Source of the DNA: Escherichia coli
Lineage (GTDB): Bacteria > Pseudomonadota > Gammaproteobacteria > Enterobacterales > Enterobacteriaceae
Direction: 5' to 3' (one strand)
Assembly: GCF_024298765.1 (NCBI RefSeq)
Contig: NZ_CP101211.1
DNA length: 64,000 bases
Positions within the stretch are counted from its first letter, which is position 1; each line of letters begins with the position of its first letter. The position numbers and the translations under genes are program-made. The notes beneath the pieces were generated by a model. It had not been told where the DNA came from. It ran no database searches and was given only the letters and a program-made list of their open reading frames with translations. Shown in pieces: positions 52,995 to 63,725 of this stretch.

Positions 52995-53276
52995 CTATCG
53001 GTCTAAAAGCTGATCCATTAATAATTCTTCGTAAAGCCCAGAGGTATCGGGCTTTATTACAATATCCGTTATTTCGAAGCGTTCAAGTACAAATTGCAGA
53101 TATTCCGGAGTAACGTAGTAGGGATCAGGTTCAGCCAGATTAGTATAGAGTGGGTCTTCTGCTGCATTAATGTCATAATCAATGCACATATGAAACCACT
53201 GCAAAGGTGGATCCCAGCCTAACATCACCTGAACAATTCCCTGATTGCTTTTCACCTCATACCAGTGCTGGCTCAT
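52995..53276 (-). CDS. Hypothetical small protein
   Basis: 93-aa ORF. Confidence 0.25.
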   Translation of the reverse strand: MSQHWYEVKSNQGIVQVMLGWDPPLQWFHMCIDYDINAAEDPLYTNLAEPDPYYVTPEYLQFVLERFEITDIVIKPDTSGLYEELLMDQLLDR

Positions 53277-53325
53277 ACTTAGTCCTTAAGAAAATTTGTC
53301 ATCGGAAAATAACACGAAGCCTGCA

Positions 53326-53517
53326 TCATCGAGGCGCATAACCTTCTTCCCTTAACGCCTGTTGTAATTTATCAACTGCGCTTTTCATTACCCAGGCTTC
53401 TTCGTCACTCACAGCACAACCACGTAGATCGCTCCAGCTCAGACGTTTAACAAATTGAGCAAGGGCCATAGTTTCGTTCTCATCAAGCCGCAAACTCAGT
53501 GTCTCAATACCTTCCAC
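53326..53517 (-). CDS. Hypothetical small protein
   Basis: 63-aa ORF. Confidence 0.2.
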   Translation of the reverse strand: MEGIETLSLRLDENETMALAQFVKRLSWSDLRGCAVSDEEAWVMKSAVDKLQQALREEGYAPR

Positions 53518-53608
53518 AATCTAACCTCCCTTATAATGAAAAATGGCGCTTTACTTCTGACCAGATGCCGAAGCCTTGAATGCAGCCGGAACTGTCGTTG
53601 TTTCTACT

Positions 53609-53980
53609 TTACAGAAATGGAATTAAAAAGTGGTGATGCTGGGCACGTTTCTTTTCCAGCCGGGGTTTAAGCCAGAGCTGAAACTCATTCAACTTCTCAG
53701 CAGCCAAAACCGCTTCAACGGGGAAAACTTTATATTTACCCTGTTGCTGAGGTTCACCCAGCCATCGCCTGATGGCTCCGTCAGTCCATAAACGAGTCTC
53801 TTTTAGCCTAGTTACAGTGACCCATTTTCTGGACCATTCATCAAATTGTCGCTGGCGATCCCGATAACGTTGTTCTTCCTGCTGCCGAAGCCACTCGCGA
53901 TCAACAGCAAATTTTCGGTATCCAACAAAGAGCCCTTGTACTTTGGCCATGTCATATTCCGGTTGCTTAGAGTTACTCAT
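53609..53980 (-). CDS. Hypothetical protein
   Basis: 123-aa ORF. Confidence 0.3.
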   Translation of the reverse strand: MSNSKQPEYDMAKVQGLFVGYRKFAVDREWLRQQEEQRYRDRQRQFDEWSRKWVTVTRLKETRLWTDGAIRRWLGEPQQQGKYKVFPVEAVLAAEKLNEFQLWLKPRLEKKRAQHHHFLIPFL

Positions 53981-54283
53981 TCAACCAAAACCTAAACGTC
54001 GATACAAACTCTGTTTCATAACCAGGGTTTTATCCTTACCGCGACAGTAAGTAACAGGGGCTGCATAAACCGGTCATTTAGTCCGTTATGCAAAAATTAT
54101 TGAGGATCCGGGCTGTTAAACTGTTCTTCCTCTTTCGCTTCCGGTGAAAAGGGGAGGTGTCACCCTGCGAGCCCGTGTAGTGAAAGGGATTCGTCGTAAT
54201 ACAGGCCAAAGGCTAACATGACCGCAAAGGACGCCCGGGCGACCGGATACCTGCCGGGTTGTGCGATGTAAAATCCGGAAGCA

Positions 54284-54715
54284 GTGATAACACAAACAGG
54301 CCCCTACAGCGTAAGGATTGTGATGGACGATAAAGAGCAGTTTACGAATCTTGTGGCAAAGCATGCCTCCGGACTCACCGAAGAGCAGCTGGCCGGGTAC
54401 GATGCCTGTTCCCTGGATGGTGAATGCGTCACGCCTTCATACGAGGTTTTCCGGGGGTATCGTACCCGCCACACACTGGATGAATTTCTGGAGATGGCCA
54501 TATCGCTGAATGCCATCCACCCGGATGAATATTTAACGGATATGCTGCTGAAGCCTCATGAGGTGATCGGCGCTCTGGCCGATGAAGGCGACCAGCTGAA
54601 CAACGCCACCCCGGTTTATTTCTTTCCGGATACCGGCGTCTATGCAGCGGCCGTTAGTGAAACCCGGGTGCTCGATGCCTGGCTTTGCTGGCCATGCTAC
54701 CCGGCGAACTGGTAA
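54284..54715 (+). CDS. Hypothetical protein
   Basis: 143-aa ORF. Confidence 0.3.
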   Translation: MITQTGPYSVRIVMDDKEQFTNLVAKHASGLTEEQLAGYDACSLDGECVTPSYEVFRGYRTRHTLDEFLEMAISLNAIHPDEYLTDMLLKPHEVIGALADEGDQLNNATPVYFFPDTGVYAAAVSETRVLDAWLCWPCYPANW

Positions 54716-55315
54716 CGCGGCCGTTGGAATTGCACCGGCCGGATACGAATTTAACCGATCCCGTGGCGGGAAGGCTATCAGAGTTGCATGTCCTCATCCC
54801 TCAAGCCCCCTGCCAGGCCCCAACGTGCTGTCAGGCTTCGCCTGATTCCCGATCTGCGCCGATACTTCAGCCGATAACTTTTTGTTTTCTTTTTATTTTC
54901 TTCCCATTTCCTCAAAAATCGCGGGCGGCGTGGACAGGGCACCATTGCCGCATGTGGGGTCTTAATAAGGGCAGGGTGGTCAGTTTTGCTCGATGCCATG
55001 GGTAGGCCCTCCCCTTCATGGGATGAGGACATGCAAGTAAGCTAACTATCTGAAATGACGAAGGTTCATTTGGTGAATGTCGCTTCATATTAATGTTGTG
55101 TCACTTATGATCGTATGTAGCTGGTTGCAAAGAGGAGCGATGAGACAATAAAGTTGTATCGCTAACAAGATTTATGCTGCCACATAGTAACAGCCTAAAA
55201 GTTGTACGCCCTATTTAACAGCTTTTAGGCTGTTAATTTGATATTACAGCTTTTAGGGTGTATGTTTAGGAAACAGCCTGCAAGGTGTATCAGAGGAAAC
55301 TACTGAGGCCAGCTT

Positions 55316-55612
55316 ATGATCAATAATGATTACCCGTTAAACACGCTCAACCAGCTGCGTCCCTTGCTCATTGGTTTTCGCAAGGCGAATGGCCTGACGC
55401 AAAAAGACCTGTCCGAAAGGTTAGGCGTCACTCAACAGACATACTCACGTCTGGAAGCCAACCCTGCCAGTGCGAGCATTGAACGGCTATTCAAGGTGTT
55501 TTCCATCCTGGGCGTAAAAATCAGCTTCTCCTCGGCAACCACCTCTTCAGAGAGGAAGCAGACGGAAGAAATGCTTAAATCAAACTCACCTGCACGACAG
55601 GAGGATTGGTAA
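55316..55612 (+). CDS. hipB: XRE-family HTH antitoxin HipB
   Basis: 98 aa; HTH LSERLGVTQQTYSRLE; immediately upstream of hipA. Confidence 0.7.
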   Translation: MINNDYPLNTLNQLRPLLIGFRKANGLTQKDLSERLGVTQQTYSRLEANPASASIERLFKVFSILGVKISFSSATTSSERKQTEEMLKSNSPARQEDW

Positions 55613-55616
55613 CGAT

Positions 55617-56942
55617 ATGAGCCGGAAACAGCAACGTCTGGTAATTTGGATGAACGGCATCAAAGTCGGGTACTGGGAAAAAAGCAAAGGGGTAGACAGC
55701 TTAGAATACCTTCCTGAATGGGTTGCTGACGAACAGGGAAGGCCGCTGTCATTGTCCCTTCCTTTTACTCCCGGGAACCAGGTCTGGCGTGGAAATGTGG
55801 TACGTGACTATTTTGATAATTTACTGCCGGACAGCGAAGGCATACGCAGACGTCTGGCAATGCGTTACAAGGCCGATAGCCTGGAGCCTTTTGATCTGCT
55901 GACGGAGCTGGGAAAAGACTGCGTGGGCGCGATACAGCTGCTTCATGACGGAGATGAACCCACTGATTTATATTCCGTGAAGTATCACCCGCTTACTGAA
56001 TCAGAAATTGCGGCAACTTTGCGTAATACCACGGAGACATTGCTACCGGGCAGGCCAGAAGATAACGACGACTTACGTTTATCTATTGCCGGTGCTCAGG
56101 AGAAAACAGCCCTACTGTGGCATGAAGATCGGTGGTGTATGCCGGAGGGTAATACACCAACGACGCATATATTCAAGCTACCGCTCGGACTTGTGGGGAA
56201 CATGAAAGCCGACATGAGCTCGTCGGTTGAAAATGAATGGCTCTGCTCGGTACTTCTCGGCCAGTACGGGCTCCCCGTGGCAAGAACGCAGATTGCTCAC
56301 TTTGAAGATCAGAAAGCGCTGGTGGTAGAACGTTTTGACCGAAAATGGTCAGGAGACGGACAATGGATCATTCGTTTACCCCAGGAGGATATGTGTCAGG
56401 CCCTGGGCGTTTCGCCATTACGAAAATATCAGGCGGACGGCGGGCCAGGTATATCGGAAATTATGGAGGTTCTGAGTAATTCAGACCGTGCTGAGCGTGA
56501 CAAAGCGCAGTTTTTTATGACGCAGATAATTTTCTGGATGATGGCCGCAACAGATGGCCACGCTAAAAATTTCAGTATTTCTATTGGGCCACAGGGACGT
56601 TATCACCTTACACCAAACTATGATGTGTTGTCGGCATGGCCGGTGATCGGTCATGGGAACAATCAGATATCCTGGCAGAAGTGCAAACTGGCGATGGCCG
56701 TACGTGGCAGTAGCAACTATTACCAGATATATCGAATACAACGACGCCACTGGATCAGGCATGGTGAGATAACCGGCCTGAGTAAACAGCAGACAGAGGC
56801 GATGATAGAGGAAATCATCGCCAGAACCCCGGGTGTCATTGAACGTGTTAGCGGGCTTCTTCCGGACCAGTTCCCCCAGCAGCTTGCGGAAAGTATTTTT
56901 GATGGAATGAGGCAGCAATGCAGGCGCCTGGCTGAGAAATGA
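55617..56942 (+). CDS. hipA: HipA-family Ser/Thr kinase toxin
   Basis: 441 aa; conserved blocks FDNLLPDS, SIAGAQEKTAL, ERFDR, RLPQEDMCQ, TDGHAKNFS shared with E. coli HipA as recalled. Confidence 0.75.
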   Translation: MSRKQQRLVIWMNGIKVGYWEKSKGVDSLEYLPEWVADEQGRPLSLSLPFTPGNQVWRGNVVRDYFDNLLPDSEGIRRRLAMRYKADSLEPFDLLTELGKDCVGAIQLLHDGDEPTDLYSVKYHPLTESEIAATLRNTTETLLPGRPEDNDDLRLSIAGAQEKTALLWHEDRWCMPEGNTPTTHIFKLPLGLVGNMKADMSSSVENEWLCSVLLGQYGLPVARTQIAHFEDQKALVVERFDRKWSGDGQWIIRLPQEDMCQALGVSPLRKYQADGGPGISEIMEVLSNSDRAERDKAQFFMTQIIFWMMAATDGHAKNFSISIGPQGRYHLTPNYDVLSAWPVIGHGNNQISWQKCKLAMAVRGSSNYYQIYRIQRRHWIRHGEITGLSKQQTEAMIEEIIARTPGVIERVSGLLPDQFPQQLAESIFDGMRQQCRRLAEK

Positions 56943-57002
56943 CAGCCGCAATTTATAGTGTGCATGTTTTCAGAATAGCTGATGTAAGCGTGAGGATTCA
57001 GT

Positions 57003-57209
57003 ATGACTGAAGAACAAAAAAGAATAGAGCGGGCTATTGAGTTGGCTTGTCGTTACGGCGGAACCGATGAAATGCATCATCTGCAATGGGTCGTGGATCA
57101 GATGGTAAGAGAACTTGCTGGAGAACGTTATGCACAGATTGTAGCTGATGCCACCAGCGGAGAAGATGGGCCTGATACTTACAAATGGAGTGTTGGGATC
57201 GCGCCTTAA
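57003..57209 (+). CDS. Small hypothetical protein
   Basis: 68-aa ORF. Confidence 0.25.
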   Translation: MTEEQKRIERAIELACRYGGTDEMHHLQWVVDQMVRELAGERYAQIVADATSGEDGPDTYKWSVGIAP

Positions 57210-57310
57210 CAGCTGTCGGTCTGGGGGTGAAAACGTATTCTTCATTCAGCGAATTCCCAGGCTTCACATTAAGACTAAAGCGGCGGCCGCAGTAACGTAA
57301 GAGAAAATAA

Positions 57311-57721
57311 ATGGCTATTTTAGCAATCATTGCAGTTATCGCCCTGGGTGGGTACGCCTACGGATTTATTAAAACCCGTGAGCTGAGCGCTTTGCGTAAA
57401 GAAATGAAACTATACGTGGATCGCATGGAAGCGGCGGAGCTGGACTTACACGCAATCAGAAGTGTAGCGGAGCACCGGTTGCACGGTGCAGGTAAACAGT
57501 TTGCCGACCTTTACAGCCGTATCGACGGTGCAACTGTGACGCTGACACCCGAAGATCAGCTGTTACTGGCAACGATGCCATTTAATATTCAGGATGTAGA
57601 AGACATCGTAAACGAGCGCGGTCCAAAGACAATTAGCGGCCGTCCATTCTGGGAAGTTGAGCCAGGCCCGCATGATTATGAATATGGCCCGCAATATCCG
57701 TATTTCCCAGACCAGCGCTAG
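57311..57721 (+). CDS. Hypothetical protein with N-terminal transmembrane helix
   Basis: 136 aa; N-terminus MAILAIIAVIALGGYAYGFI. Confidence 0.3.
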   Translation: MAILAIIAVIALGGYAYGFIKTRELSALRKEMKLYVDRMEAAELDLHAIRSVAEHRLHGAGKQFADLYSRIDGATVTLTPEDQLLLATMPFNIQDVEDIVNERGPKTISGRPFWEVEPGPHDYEYGPQYPYFPDQR

Positions 57722-57733
57722 GAAGAGATCAAG

Positions 57734-58549
57734 ATGAGAGAGCCAAGACCACGCCATACCTTGCAGGTCATTCGTGTACCTTCTCTGGAGGTTCAGGACC
57801 TGGGGCTGACCAGCTTTGATAGCTGGCTTGACGAGCACGGGTATGACAAAACGAATGCCAGAAATAACCGTACCATCTGGGCGAGAGAAGGCGGATGGCA
57901 TCTGAAACGTTGCAGAAATCTTGAAACTGGCACGGACGATTTCTGGTTTATCGCTTTCGATGGTAAAGGCGGGAAGATTTACCCGCTGAAAACCCAAAGA
58001 GACTACCGGGCTGCATATCGTAAGCTGGAAGCAGAAGGTTATGCGCCTGCGGTCATCGAGCAAATGACCACAGGCGCAGCATATAACCTGGCCTATCCAC
58101 GTTCCACCCTAAAACAAGCTGAGACGGCCACCAGCGAGCCAATTCGGAAACCTGACGTAGATATCCAGGGTGAGCACTGCGAGCGCGTAGTGACGCAACG
58201 TAGTGGCGTGGCACAGGGTAAATTCAAAGCTCTGCTCATCGAGAATTTCGCAGGCCGTTGTGCGGTAACCGGTTGGGTTAATGGAGGTGTCCTGGATGCG
58301 GCACACATTGAACATGGAACCCGGTACAATCCGTCTAATGGCATCCTGATGACTCCAACAATGCATGCGCTGTTTGATGCCGATCTTATGGGCATAGATC
58401 CGGCCACCCTGACCGTTCATTTTAAGCCAGGCATTGAGGTGGGCGAGCTGTTTGAAGGCCGTAAAATCACACCGCTGGTGTACGATCTGGACTTAGAGCG
58501 GCTGGCCGTACGCTGGGCAGAATACCAGGGCCTTGCTCAGGACCAATGA
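57734..58549 (+). CDS. HNH endonuclease-domain protein
   Basis: 271 aa; C-terminal CAVTG..AAHI..NGILMTPTMHALFD..IDP is an HNH-type motif. Confidence 0.55.
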   Translation: MREPRPRHTLQVIRVPSLEVQDLGLTSFDSWLDEHGYDKTNARNNRTIWAREGGWHLKRCRNLETGTDDFWFIAFDGKGGKIYPLKTQRDYRAAYRKLEAEGYAPAVIEQMTTGAAYNLAYPRSTLKQAETATSEPIRKPDVDIQGEHCERVVTQRSGVAQGKFKALLIENFAGRCAVTGWVNGGVLDAAHIEHGTRYNPSNGILMTPTMHALFDADLMGIDPATLTVHFKPGIEVGELFEGRKITPLVYDLDLERLAVRWAEYQGLAQDQ

Positions 58550-58802: not shown

Positions 58803-59228
58803 ATGAATAAAACAGCTTTAATTATGATTCTGGGAATCCTCGGATGTGGTAAAGCATTTGCAGCCACTGAATTACAGCTCCAGCAAAAACGCGTTATGCA
58901 TTTCTGTGCCAATGCCAGCCTTCCGTTGTTGATTGCCGGTACAACTTATGCGAATACGTCTGACAATGGACGACCAGAAAAAGAAAGAGTGGCAATCCTG
59001 AAAAATTCAGTTGCAAGCTCGACAGCTTATAAAATGGCATCTCCCGGAGTTCAGATGGCCATGATGAGCGTGGTGGAAGATATTGCCGATCCGAAAGAAT
59101 TAGCTCTACATCAAAAAGAAGTTAGACGTCTTGGGGCTAGTTATCTTTCCGACAGCGGTGTTTCATGGGCTTCAAAAACTGTTTCACCATTTACAGCCTG
59201 GTGTAACTTTAACCGTTTAGAAAGTTAA
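58803..59228 (+). CDS. Hypothetical secreted protein
   Basis: 141 aa; signal peptide MNKTALIMILGILGCGKAFA. Confidence 0.35.
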   Translation: MNKTALIMILGILGCGKAFAATELQLQQKRVMHFCANASLPLLIAGTTYANTSDNGRPEKERVAILKNSVASSTAYKMASPGVQMAMMSVVEDIADPKELALHQKEVRRLGASYLSDSGVSWASKTVSPFTAWCNFNRLES

Positions 59229-60100: not shown

Positions 60101-60958
60101 ATGAAAATGACGAAGCCAAAACCGGTAAGCCGGATGAAAAGACCGTTTATTAGTGAGCTTGCAGAGCTGGGTTTATCGGGTGAAATTCTTTCAATTCGAA
60201 CTGACGGCATGCAGGGGACGCTCATACCCGATCTTACCGCAGGGGTGAGTGAAGCAGGCCGTGTGAAAACCGGCAACTGGGTAATCTCTGACAAGAGAAC
60301 CTTCGACCATGTCGTTCTGTGTGTTGAAAGACAAGATGAGAACCATGATGTGTACGTAGGTAAATTCATCCAGTTACATGTAGCCGCTAATAAGAGCCTT
60401 AAGATCGTCGAAATGGGCGATGTGAAACTGGTGGCCATAACCAGCTCGATTCCTACCACTTTTAATGGTGGGATAAAGAGATACAAAGGGGTTACGTATG
60501 TGTCACTTTCCCAAACAGCTCAAACCACTATCGACTTCCCGAAGCGTATCTACAAAGAGGGCCAGGAATGTACTTCTGTCACCAGTCCTGACCAAGGTCC
60601 TTTCGCCCGGGATGTTAGGTTGAATTGCTACGGGCGATGTGTTGTCACCGGCGTAAGGTCCCCCTGGCGTACTGAGGCCGCGCACTTAACGCCACGTCAT
60701 GAAGAAGGCATTCCCGACGTAACGAACGGAATTTTACTTCGCCGTGATATCCATACACTGTTCGACAATGACCATTGCGCCATAAACCCTGACACTATGA
60801 AAATTTACTTCAGCCGGGAGGCCCGGGAGTTGGATGATGATCTCCTGAAATGGCATGGGAATGAGATAGAGACGACACGCATGCAGGTTCCGGTTAACAT
60901 CGAAAACCTTCGGATACGATGGCAAAAATTTAAGGCTAAGGATCGTCAGCGTAAATAA
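60101..60958 (+). CDS. HNH endonuclease-domain protein (paralog of the 57734 gene in the HNH region)
   Basis: 285 aa; CVVTG..AAHL..NGILLRRDIHTLFD..INP matches the same HNH-type motif with a different N-terminal domain. Confidence 0.55.
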   Translation: MKMTKPKPVSRMKRPFISELAELGLSGEILSIRTDGMQGTLIPDLTAGVSEAGRVKTGNWVISDKRTFDHVVLCVERQDENHDVYVGKFIQLHVAANKSLKIVEMGDVKLVAITSSIPTTFNGGIKRYKGVTYVSLSQTAQTTIDFPKRIYKEGQECTSVTSPDQGPFARDVRLNCYGRCVVTGVRSPWRTEAAHLTPRHEEGIPDVTNGILLRRDIHTLFDNDHCAINPDTMKIYFSREARELDDDLLKWHGNEIETTRMQVPVNIENLRIRWQKFKAKDRQRK

Positions 60959-62909: not shown

Positions 62910-63725
62910 TCAGAAAAACTCATCGAGCATCAAATGAAACTGCAATTTATTCATATCAGGATTATCAATACCATATTTTTGAAAAAGCCGTTTCTGTAAT
63001 GAAGGAGAAAATTCACCGAGGCAGTTCCATAGGATGGCAAGATCCTGGTATCGGTCTGCGATTCCGACTCGTCCAACATCAATACAACCTATTAATTTCC
63101 CCTCGTCAAAAATAAGGTTATCAAGTGAGAAATCACCATGAGTGACGACTGAATCCGGTGAGAATGGCAAAAGCTTATGCATTTCTTTCCAGACTTGTTC
63201 AACAGGCCAGCCATTACGCTCGTCATCAAAATCACTCGCATCAACCAAACCGTTATTCATTCGTGATTGCGCCTGAGCGAGACGAAATACGCGATCGCTG
63301 TTAAAAGGACAATTACTAACAGGAATCGAATGCAACCGGCGCAGGAACGCTGCCAGCGCATCAACAATATTTTCACCTGAATCAGGATATTCTTCTAATA
63401 CCTGGAATGCTGTTTTCCCGGGGAGCGCAGTGGTGAGTAACCATGCATCATCAGGAGTACGGATAAAATGCTTGATGGTCGGAAGAGGCATAAATGCCGT
63501 CAGCCAGTTTAGTCTGACCATCTCATCTGTAACATCATTGGCAACGCTACCTTTGCCATGTTTCAGAAACAACTCTGGCGCATCGGGCTTCCCATACAAT
63601 CGATAGATTGTCGCACCTGATTGCCCGACATTATCGCGAGCCCATTTATACCCATATAAATCAGCATCCAGGTTGGAATTTAATCGCGGCCTCGAGCAAG
63701 ACGTTTCCCGTTGAATATGGCTCAT
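62910..63725 (-). CDS. aph(3')-I: Aminoglycoside 3'-phosphotransferase APH(3')-I (kanamycin/neomycin resistance)
   Basis: 271 aa MSHIQRETSCSRPRLNS..HGDFSLDNLIFDEGKLIGCIDVGRVGIADRYQDLAILWNCLGEFSP matches APH(3')-Ia-type enzyme as recalled. Confidence 0.9.
   Translation of the reverse strand: MSHIQRETSCSRPRLNSNLDADLYGYKWARDNVGQSGATIYRLYGKPDAPELFLKHGKGSVANDVTDEMVRLNWLTAFMPLPTIKHFIRTPDDAWLLTTALPGKTAFQVLEEYPDSGENIVDALAAFLRRLHSIPVSNCPFNSDRVFRLAQAQSRMNNGLVDASDFDDERNGWPVEQVWKEMHKLLPFSPDSVVTHGDFSLDNLIFDEGKLIGCIDVGRVGIADRYQDLAILWNCLGEFSPSLQKRLFQKYGIDNPDMNKLQFHLMLDEFF

What the first reader, a model, noticed from the sequence alone, without database searches (positions are those of the whole stretch)
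55316..56942. hipBA toxin-antitoxin module
A complete HipB and HipA pair with conserved HipA blocks sits between the ter island and the HNH genes. On a plasmid it likely contributes to maintenance or persistence.
Basis: partly seen in the sequence, partly recalled or inferred. Interest (0 to 1): 0.3.

Follow-up and report, generated by a model that had tools for sequence, protein, structure and literature searches.

The report
IncHI2 plasmid hipBA toxin-antitoxin module
This is an intact, ordinary hipBA toxin-antitoxin operon (a growth-arresting kinase and its repressor antitoxin) that belongs to the conserved backbone of IncHI2 resistance plasmids; it is already annotated and named in over a thousand public plasmids.

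Summary
Two same-strand ORFs lie exactly where reported: hipB (55316-55612, 98 aa) and hipA (55617-56942, 441 aa), 4 nt apart. HipA matches E. coli HipA crystal structures over its full length (E=1e-100, 41% identity). HipB is a Cro/C1 HTH protein whose best solved relatives are all HipB, and it keeps the conserved C-terminal Trp.

The DNA is 100% identical in hundreds of IncHI2 plasmids and present in 1186 PLSDB plasmids. PGAP already calls the kinase a 'type II toxin-antitoxin system HipA family toxin'. Several papers list hipAB as an IncHI2 backbone stability module. I found no direct functional test of this plasmid copy.

One detail may be undescribed. Four ACAGC-N6-GNTGT palindromes lie 27-28 bp apart upstream of hipB, straddling the only sigma-70-like promoter match. 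They replace K-12's four TATCC-N8-GGATA operators. They are conserved as a footprint in ten HipB-orthologue loci, from Enterobacterales to Ralstonia and Massilia.

Verdict: real and correctly interpreted, but already known. Its role in plasmid maintenance or persistence is inferred, not shown.

The parts
55190..55205 (.). Operator-like palindrome 1 (ACAGCCTAAAAGTTGT), centred about -118 from the hipB ATG
   Evidence: Pattern ACAGC-N6-GNTGT gives 5 matches (4 sites; site 2, a perfect palindrome, is counted on both strands) in the 64-kb window against 0.46 expected, all of them here. The half-site cores are invariant in the 6-locus alignment A1.
55218..55233 (.). Operator-like palindrome 2 (ACAGCTTTTAGGCTGT), a perfect 10/10 palindrome that extends to TAACAGC/GCTGTTA
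55246..55261 (.). Operator-like palindrome 3 (ACAGCTTTTAGGGTGT), lying in the spacer of the promoter-like site
55273..55288 (.). Operator-like palindrome 4 (ACAGCCTGCAAGGTGT), just downstream of the -10-like hexamer
55238..55266 (+). Sigma-70-like promoter match (TTGATA, 17 nt, TATGTT; 9/12). It is the only such match within the palindrome array and nearest hipB (a second 9/12 match, TTCATA-16-TATGAT at 55084-55111, lies upstream of the array); consensus match only.
55316..55612 (+). hipB: a 98-aa Cro/C1-type HTH antitoxin/repressor. The HTH spans residues 22-70 (nt 55379-55525). A C-terminal tail of about 25 residues ends in Trp98.
55532..55609 (+). The HipB C-terminal tail (residues 73-98, ATTSSERKQTEEMLKSNSPARQEDW). 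It is the counterpart of K-12's 16-residue Lon-degron tail ending in W88.
   Evidence: Alignment. The K-12 tail's function is from PMC3376134. Degron function here is inferred.
55617..56942 (+). hipA: a 441-aa Ser/Thr kinase toxin with an N-terminal Couple_hipA subdomain and a HipA_C kinase core
56082..56108 (+). Codons for S156 and the Gly-rich loop IAGAQEKT (K-12 S150, 151-158)
56553..56570 (+). Codons for the catalytic motif DGHAKN (D313, H315, N318; K-12 D309, H311, N314)
56622..56624 (+). Codon for the Mg2+-binding Asp336 (K-12 D332)

Best explanation
This is a canonical two-gene type II hipBA toxin-antitoxin operon on the IncHI2 plasmid backbone.

Shown from sequence:
- hipB and hipA are adjacent on the same strand, 4 nt apart.
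- HipA is a full-length homologue of E. coli K-12 HipA with all four kinase motifs intact.
- HipB is an Xre/Cro HTH protein with the conserved C-terminal Trp.
- An array of four palindromes, 27-28 bp apart, overlaps the only promoter-like site that lies within the palindrome array (a second 9/12 match sits upstream of it at 55084-55111) and is conserved across distant orthologous loci.

Inferred by homology to K-12 HipBA:
- A HipB dimer binds each palindrome and represses the operon.
- HipA binds HipB as co-repressor and is held inactive.
- When HipB is degraded, probably by Lon through its disordered C-terminal tail, or is no longer resynthesised after plasmid loss, free HipA phosphorylates an aminoacyl-tRNA synthetase. 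This is most likely GltX at Ser239, as for E. coli and K. pneumoniae HipA.
- Uncharged tRNA then accumulates, the stringent response is triggered and growth stops.
- HipA autophosphorylation on Ser156 would later switch the kinase off.

On a 200-300 kb low-copy plasmid the expected net effects are post-segregational growth arrest of plasmid-free segregants and, possibly, more antibiotic-tolerant cells. Neither effect has been measured for this copy.
For: - The ORFs sit at the exact coordinates.
- Pfam HipA_C 174.3 bits, Couple_hipA 75.9 bits, HTH_3 55.9 bits. TIGR03071 93.5 bits against a cut-off of 27.8.
- PDB: HipA E=1.4e-100 to 2wiu_A over residues 7-431; the five best HipB matches are all E. 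coli HipB.
- All catalytic, ATP, Mg and autophosphorylation residues are conserved. So are G22, D88 and D291, the positions of the hipA7 and related high-persistence alleles (recalled).
- The HipB C-terminal Trp is conserved. It is described as universally conserved in PMC3376134.
- Four ACAGC-N6-GNTGT sites occur only here in 64 kb (5 matches against 0.46 expected), and site 3 lies inside the promoter-like spacer.
- The same array appears upstream of hipB in 10 loci, including Ralstonia and Massilia. The background is 0.10 sites per 200 bp, and the invariant alignment columns are the half-site cores.
- K-12 has the analogous 4 x TATCC-N8-GGATA array with 28/39/28-bp spacing (PMC3920265).
- Purifying selection: against the Cronobacter orthologue, synonymous sites are saturated while dN=0.26 (hipA). 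Between the two IncHI2 lineages dN/dS=0.33.
- The locus is present in 1186 plasmids, identical in hundreds, and PGAP names the kinase a HipA family toxin. In E. coli, 287 of 291 places are on plasmids.
- The literature lists hipAB as an IncHI2 backbone stability module and reports it as transcribed and differentially expressed.
- K. pneumoniae HipA is toxic, is rescued by HipB and phosphorylates GltX S239.
Against: - I found no toxicity, neutralisation, DNA-binding or plasmid-stability experiment for the IncHI2 copy. The papers assert the role from annotation only.
- HipB scores below NCBIfam's curated cut-offs for the K-12 HipB equivalog (41.5 against 79) and for the Y4mF subfamily (41 against 71.65). 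It is therefore a separate HipB clade, with 32% identity over 57 residues.
- HipA is only 41% identical to K-12 HipA and has a 2-residue deletion in the activation-loop region. The substrate cannot be read from sequence.
- One reported IncHI2 plasmid lacks HipBA, and an IncF plasmid carries hipB with a deleted hipA. The module is therefore dispensable.
- The promoter call is a 9/12 consensus match, and the region yields 5 such matches against 3.2 expected.
Confidence: 0.9

Rival explanations
1. It is the same hipBA module, but HipA's main substrate is not GltX. It could be another aminoacyl-tRNA synthetase or several targets, as with HipT (TrpS) or Caulobacter HipA2 (recalled). The downstream physiology would then differ from K-12.
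For: There is only 41% identity to K-12 HipA, with a 2-residue deletion next to the activation loop. Hip kinases with the same four motifs are known to have diverged in target (PMC8262856 and PMC10627512).
Against: The protein aligns colinearly with K-12 HipA over its full length at E=1e-100. It scores far better against K-12 HipA than against Shewanella HipA (E=3e-21) or against YjjJ/HipH (25 bits against a 401-bit cut-off). K. pneumoniae HipA, another diverged enterobacterial HipA, still targets GltX S239.
Confidence: 0.15
2. The module's selected function is abortive-infection-type phage defence, or exclusion of competing plasmids, rather than post-segregational stabilisation or persistence.
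For: TA modules in general have been linked to phage defence (PMC8262856 abstract). HipA gives weak matches to a PADLOC candidate family (PDC-M03A, E=4e-5, 21 bits), and HipB matches HTH components of defence systems. The module sits among ter and HNH genes, a stress/defence-flavoured region.
Against: The PADLOC matches are weak and partial (residues 170-340 only), and the HTH matches are generic. No defence-specific partner gene travels with the module: the Cronobacter, Ralstonia and Rahnella orthologues have unrelated neighbours.
Confidence: 0.1
3. It is an inactive remnant: the genes are intact as ORFs, but HipA is no longer toxic or the operon is silent, and it simply hitch-hikes on the IncHI2 backbone.
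For: The very high identity among IncHI2 copies reflects recent common ancestry, so it does not by itself prove selection. Decay does happen: hipA carries internal deletions in p12MO13m20 and in Rahnella p2, and one E. coli plasmid holds only the 3' half.
Against: Every catalytic and regulatory residue is intact. At the deeper comparison synonymous sites are saturated while dN is 0.26, and the four operators are conserved. hipA/B transcripts are reported as differentially expressed from an IncHI2 plasmid (PMC13183382).
Confidence: 0.04

Closest known systems
E. coli K-12 HipBA (b1507/b1508; structures 2WIU, 3DNV, 3HZI, 4YG7)
   Same: Gene order is hipB then hipA, in a tight operon. HipA has the same length (441 against 440 aa) and domain layout. 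All four kinase motifs, the autophosphorylated Ser and the hipA7 positions G22 and D291 are conserved. HipB is an Xre HTH protein with a disordered tail ending in Trp. Four palindromic operators lie in the promoter region, with 28-bp spacing between neighbours.
   Different: HipA is 41% identical and HipB 32% identical over 57 aligned residues. The operator sequence is ACAGC-N6-GCTGT, not TATCC-N8-GGATA; no K-12-type site occurs between 54532 and 57336, which includes the whole hipB upstream region, even with 2 mismatches. Spacing is an even 28/28/27 bp against 28/39/28 bp. The HipB tail is about 25 residues, not 16. The genes are 4 nt apart, whereas in K-12 they overlap by 1 nt. This copy is plasmid-borne rather than chromosomal.
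hipAB of IncHI2 plasmids (R478, pHXY0908, pSTM6-275 and others) as named in the literature and RefSeq
   Same: This is the same locus. It is 100% identical over 2.3 kb to pSTM6-275 and hundreds of others, and 97.8% identical to the second IncHI2 lineage.
   Different: Nothing of substance differs. RefSeq starts hipB one codon later (window 55319) and names it only 'helix-turn-helix transcriptional regulator'.
Klebsiella pneumoniae chromosomal HipBA (PMC11717353)
   Same: It is an enterobacterial HipA shown to be toxic, to be partly rescued by HipB, to autophosphorylate at S150/T158 and to phosphorylate GltX S239. The equivalents of both autophosphorylation residues are present here (S156, T164).
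   Different: The paper describes it as highly homologous to E. coli HipA, with homologues up to about 70% identical in E. coli. The plasmid protein is only 41% identical to K-12 HipA, so it probably belongs to a more distant subclade. I did not compare the two directly.
Tripartite HipBST (E. coli O127:H6, Legionella)
   Same: It has the same kinase core motifs and an HTH HipB.
   Different: HipT lacks the N-terminal subdomain, which is instead encoded separately as HipS (PMC8262856). Here that subdomain is fused to the kinase (Couple_hipA, residues 9-108), so this is a bipartite HipBA.

Membership tests
HipA kinase toxin (Pfam HipA_C/Couple_hipA; criteria of Gerdes et al. 2021, PMC8262856) | HipA_C kinase core above the curated threshold | tested here: met
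   174.3 bits against a cut-off of 30.5, residues 155-405.
HipA kinase toxin (Pfam HipA_C/Couple_hipA; criteria of Gerdes et al. 2021, PMC8262856) | N-terminal subdomain 1 fused to the kinase (separates HipA from HipT, HipH and others) | tested here: met
   Couple_hipA 75.9 bits against 22.5; TIGR03071 93.5 bits against 27.8; residues 8-108.
HipA kinase toxin (Pfam HipA_C/Couple_hipA; criteria of Gerdes et al. 2021, PMC8262856) | Gly-rich loop with an adjacent autophosphorylated Ser | tested here: met
   S156-IAGAQEKT aligns to K-12 S150-VAGAQEKT.
HipA kinase toxin (Pfam HipA_C/Couple_hipA; criteria of Gerdes et al. 2021, PMC8262856) | Catalytic motif (Asp309, His311, Asn314) and ATP-binding Lys181 | tested here: met
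   D313, H315, N318 and K187.
HipA kinase toxin (Pfam HipA_C/Couple_hipA; criteria of Gerdes et al. 2021, PMC8262856) | Mg2+-binding Asp (K-12 D332) | tested here: met
   D336 in NYDVLSA against FYDIISA.
HipA kinase toxin (Pfam HipA_C/Couple_hipA; criteria of Gerdes et al. 2021, PMC8262856) | Activation loop after the ATP-binding Lys | tested here: inconclusive
   The region is present but diverged, with a 2-residue deletion: KLPLGLV--GNMKADMSSS against KLPIGEIRQPNATLDLSQS.
HipA kinase toxin (Pfam HipA_C/Couple_hipA; criteria of Gerdes et al. 2021, PMC8262856) | Adjacent gene for a DNA-binding antitoxin | tested here: met
   An HTH_3 protein is encoded 4 nt upstream on the same strand.
HipA kinase toxin (Pfam HipA_C/Couple_hipA; criteria of Gerdes et al. 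2021, PMC8262856) | Growth arrest on expression, neutralised by HipB; phosphorylation of GltX Ser239 | not testable with these tools
   This needs wet-lab work. I found no published test of the IncHI2 copy.
HipB antitoxin (broad sense) | Xre/Cro-type HTH whose closest solved relatives are HipB | tested here: met
   HTH_3 55.9 bits. The top five PDB hits are E. coli HipB; the next HipB hit is Legionella HipB.
HipB antitoxin (broad sense) | C-terminal Trp at the end of an unstructured tail | tested here: met
   It ends ...ARQEDW. The Trp is conserved in all ten orthologues examined and in K-12. PMC3376134 calls W88 universally conserved.
HipB antitoxin (broad sense) | Multiple palindromic operators in its own promoter region | tested here: met
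   Four palindromes at 55190-55288 are statistically unique in the window and phylogenetically footprinted. Binding itself was not tested.
K-12 HipB equivalog (NCBIfam NF007271) / Y4mF subfamily (TIGR03070) | Score above the curated equivalog or subfamily cut-off | tested here: not met
   41.5 bits against 79, and 41.0 bits against 71.65. I therefore file it as a HipB of a separate clade, not as the K-12 equivalog. This explains the generic PGAP name.
K-12 HipB equivalog (NCBIfam NF007271) / Y4mF subfamily (TIGR03070) | Operator consensus TATCC-N8-GGATA | tested here: not met
   No such site occurs between 54532 and 57336, even with 2 mismatches; the nearest, at 54514-54531, lies inside the upstream ORF. 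K-12 has four exact sites.
IncHI2 plasmid backbone | Near-identity to typed IncHI2 plasmids, with the ter cluster alongside | tested here: met
   100% identity to IncHI2A-typed, MOBH, MPF_F plasmids. Window 42000-64000 matches NZ_CP068042.1 in a single 100%-identical piece.

The most novel reading that the evidence does not exclude
The most novel reading the evidence allows has two parts.

(a) This HipB clade uses its own operator code, TACAGC-N6-GCTGTA, but keeps the 27-28 bp phasing and the four-site layout seen in K-12. That would imply that higher-order repression, with HipA bridging HipB dimers on adjacent operators, is ancestral and independent of the DNA sequence recognised.

(b) Solo hipB genes of this same clade sit on other large plasmids: IncHI1 p1810-MDR, Pantoea pPSP-a3e, K. 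pneumoniae pKP-13-14-NDM-9 and E. hormaechei p1_045001. Each has only two operators and no hipA. They might act as anti-addiction antitoxins that neutralise IncHI2 HipA during plasmid competition, rather than being mere remnants.
Probability: 0.25. Interest if true: 0.35.

Novelty: already known. Interest (0 to 1): 0.1.

Why it matters
IncHI2 plasmids are major carriers of mcr-1/mcr-9, ESBL, carbapenemase and metal-resistance genes. Their stability modules help explain why they persist without selection, and a HipA kinase could also raise antibiotic tolerance in their hosts. This locus is already recognised and routinely annotated, so confirming it adds little. The useful residue is practical: a defined operator array and promoter for anyone who wants to test regulation, plus the observation that the module's function on IncHI2 plasmids still seems to rest on annotation rather than experiment.

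Tried and rejected
- Rfam scan of 53500-58000 at E<=0.1 found nothing, so no known RNA element or RNA antitoxin is present.
- PADLOC gave only weak, partial HipA matches (PDC-M03A, 21 bits) and generic HTH matches, so there is no support for a known defence system.
- A search for a second hipB or hipA copy in the window by tblastn found none.
- A search for K-12-type operators (TATCC-N8-GGATA, up to 2 mismatches) found none in the hipB upstream region.
- The intrinsic-terminator scan found no convincing terminator after hipA. The 'terminator' at 55215-55236 is operator palindrome 2.
- Antisense ORFs inside hipA (56481-56951, 56720-56965) were disregarded as likely by-products of the coding frame opposite, not tested: I did not scan them against family libraries; no public record examined annotates a gene there.
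- The 271-aa ORF at 62910-63725 was checked as a possible paralogue of the 271-aa HNH gene. It is unrelated, an APH phosphotransferase.
- Structure prediction was not run. A full-length E=1e-100 match to solved HipA structures makes it unnecessary.

Full report
**Observation.** The mechanical ORF list gives 55316..55612 (+, ATG, 98 aa) and 55617..56942 (+, ATG, 441 aa), exactly the reported span. The genes are 4 nt apart. GAGG lies 7 nt before the hipB ATG and GGAGG 12 nt before the hipA ATG. That is the layout of a translationally linked two-gene operon.

**Identity of the proteins.**
- The 441-aa protein carries Pfam Couple_hipA (residues 9-108, 75.9 bits, cut-off 22.5) and HipA_C (155-405, 174.3 bits, cut-off 30.5).
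- It matches E. coli HipA crystal structures over residues 7-431 at E=1.4e-100.
- I fetched the real K-12 hipBA from NC_000913.3 and aligned it. Identity is 41%.
- Every functional position is conserved: S150->S156 (autophosphorylation), Gly-rich loop VAGAQEKT->IAGAQEKT, K157->K163, K181->K187, D309/H311/N314->D313/H315/N318, and D332->D336. G22, D88 and D291, the positions of high-persistence alleles, are conserved too.
- The activation-loop region is present but diverged, with a 2-residue deletion.
- The 98-aa protein is a Cro/C1 HTH (HTH_3, 55.9 bits). Its five best PDB matches are all E. coli HipB. It is 32% identical to K-12 HipB over 57 residues.
- Like K-12 HipB, it ends in a Trp after a low-complexity tail. 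PMC3376134 describes that Trp as universally conserved and shows the K-12 tail to be a Lon degradation tag.
- HipB falls below NCBIfam's cut-offs for the K-12 HipB equivalog and the Y4mF subfamily. It is thus a separate HipB clade, which explains why PGAP calls it only 'helix-turn-helix transcriptional regulator'.

**Replicon and prior knowledge.**
- The 2.3 kb around the locus is 100% identical to IncHI2A-typed conjugative plasmids such as pSTM6-275. It occurs in 1186 PLSDB plasmids: 687 at >=99% identity and 498 at 95-99%, the latter being the second IncHI2 lineage at 97.8%.
- Among 5426 complete E. coli genomes, 284 carry it, and 287 of 291 places are on plasmids.
- Papers already list hipA/hipB as a backbone 'stabilisation' module of IncHI2 plasmids and use hipA as a PCR marker (PMC4855149; PMC6617520; PMC6657070). 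One reports hipA/B as differentially expressed from an IncHI2 plasmid (PMC13183382).
- In five literature searches I found no direct toxicity, regulation or stability experiment on this copy.

**Regulatory region.**
- Upstream of hipB there are four palindromes fitting ACAGC-N6-GNTGT, at 55190, 55218, 55246 and 55273, spaced 28, 28 and 27 bp apart.
- The pattern occurs nowhere else in the 64-kb window: 5 matches (4 sites; site 2, a perfect palindrome, is counted on both strands) against 0.46 expected, and 0 of 100 shuffles reach 5.
- The sigma-70-like match nearest hipB, and the only one within the palindrome array (TTGATA-17-TATGTT, 55238-55266; another 9/12 match lies upstream at 55084-55111), has site 3 in its spacer, site 4 just downstream and site 2 just upstream.
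- K-12 has four exact TATCC-N8-GGATA operators at -134, -106, -67 and -39 (consensus and four-site cooperativity in PMC3920265 and PMC3376134).
- No K-12-type site lies upstream of the plasmid hipB, even with two mismatches.
- I tested the operator idea by comparison across ten loci that encode HipB orthologues: two IncHI2 lineages, Cronobacter pCrono684-1, IncHI1 p1810-MDR, Pantoea pPSP-a3e, Rahnella p2, K. pneumoniae pKP-13-14-NDM-9, E. hormaechei p1_045001, a Ralstonia megaplasmid and a Massilia plasmid.
- All ten carry arrays of the same palindrome type, 27-28 bp apart, directly upstream of hipB. The background is 0.10 sites per 200 bp.
- In an alignment of six loci, the invariant columns are precisely the ACA.C ... 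GT half-site cores, while spacers and flanks vary freely.
- This is strong comparative evidence for HipB operators. Binding itself remains inferred.

**Selection and decay.**
- Against the Cronobacter orthologue, synonymous sites are saturated while dN is 0.26 for hipA and 0.37 for hipB. Between the two IncHI2 lineages dN/dS is 0.33 (hipA) and 0.50 (hipB), based on few changes.
- Decay, where seen, hits the toxin and spares the antitoxin. The IncF plasmid p12MO13m20 keeps hipB but has two internal deletions in hipA. Rahnella p2 keeps hipB and a hipA remnant.
- Four plasmids carry solo hipB with no detectable hipA.

**Mechanism.**
- Shown: gene organisation, the intact kinase and HTH, the conserved Trp tail, and the conserved operator array over the promoter-like site.
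- Inferred from K-12 and K. pneumoniae HipBA: HipB dimers repress at the palindromes with HipA as co-repressor. Loss of HipB, through Lon or through plasmid loss, frees HipA. HipA then phosphorylates GltX, or possibly another aaRS, which halts translation and induces the stringent response. Autophosphorylation at S156 finally limits the kinase.
- On a large low-copy plasmid this would penalise plasmid-free segregants and could raise tolerance. This last step is the least supported.

**Rivals.** I considered a different kinase substrate (0.15), a defence or plasmid-competition role (0.10) and an inactive remnant (0.04). The first two are variations on the same module, not alternatives to its identity.

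**Verdict.** The finding is real and correctly interpreted, and it is an already known, routinely annotated element. The operator array with its own sequence code, and the solo hipB genes on other plasmids, are modest additions that I could not find described.

Noticed in passing
L007:2989-3288; L008:3001-3297; L010:2004-2300; L011:2004-2300: Solo hipB orthologues sit on other large plasmids (IncHI1 p1810-MDR, next to Tn7-like tnsD; Pantoea pPSP-a3e; K. pneumoniae pKP-13-14-NDM-9; E. hormaechei p1_045001). They are 55-66% identical in protein, have the same recognition helix TQQTYARLEANP and the same C-terminal Trp, and have no hipA within 2-3 kb by tblastn. They may be anti-addiction antitoxins or remnants.
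   Followed up: partly
window 55190-55288 compared with L004, L005, L007-L013: Operator number tracks hipA. There are four palindromes where hipA is present or recently decayed (both IncHI2 lineages, Cronobacter, Rahnella remnant, Ralstonia, and Massilia with a shifted half-site ACAYC/GATGT). There are only two in the four solo-hipB loci. With n=10 this is suggestive only.
   Followed up: partly
L006:1946-3129 (Enterobacter asburiae p12MO13m20, IncFIB/IncFII): The IncHI2-type hipBA was transferred to an IncF plasmid. hipB is intact there, but hipA has two internal deletions of roughly 35 and 100 nt. The toxin has decayed while the antitoxin is retained.
   Followed up: partly
window 55316-55321: RefSeq/PGAP starts hipB at window 55319 (97 aa, apparently codon ATC), one codon after the ATG at 55316, which has GAGG 7 nt upstream. 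The PGAP start lines up with the Met of the Cronobacter orthologue, so it is probably a homology-driven start call. The ATG at 55316 looks the more natural start.
   Followed up: partly
window about 55167: Similarity between the two IncHI2 lineages begins only at window 55167, 23 bp before the first palindrome. Upstream DNA is unrelated: the window has a 143-aa ORF at 54284-54715 plus about 450 bp of non-coding DNA, while the other lineage has a large hypothetical gene. This marks the left boundary of the hipBA module as an exchangeable unit.
   Followed up: no
window 57003-57209 and 57311-57721: Two small ORFs of unknown function (68 and 136 aa, no Pfam hit) follow hipA. The 136-aa ORF is annotated in both IncHI2 lineages and on the IncF plasmid with the decayed hipA; the 68-aa ORF is annotated only in the two IncHI2 lineages. 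Neither follows the Cronobacter, Ralstonia or Rahnella orthologues. No convincing terminator separates them from hipA.
   Followed up: partly
window 57734-58549 and 60101-60958: Two HNH_2-domain proteins (271 and 285 aa; E=3e-7 and 2e-12) lie 1.5 kb apart, with an unannotated 141-aa ORF carrying a signal-peptide-like N-terminus (58803-59228) between them. Their function on the plasmid is unknown.
   Followed up: no
window 53326-53517 (- strand): A 63-aa ORF matches DUF7706 strongly (E=1e-25). It sits in a block of small minus-strand ORFs between terF and hipB whose GC skew is opposite to its surroundings (GC skew -0.15 to -0.19 at 53000-54000).
   Followed up: no
window 62910-63725 (- strand): An APH-family aminoglycoside phosphotransferase gene (Pfam APH, E=1e-33) marks the start of an accessory resistance region at the right end of the window.
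   Followed up: no
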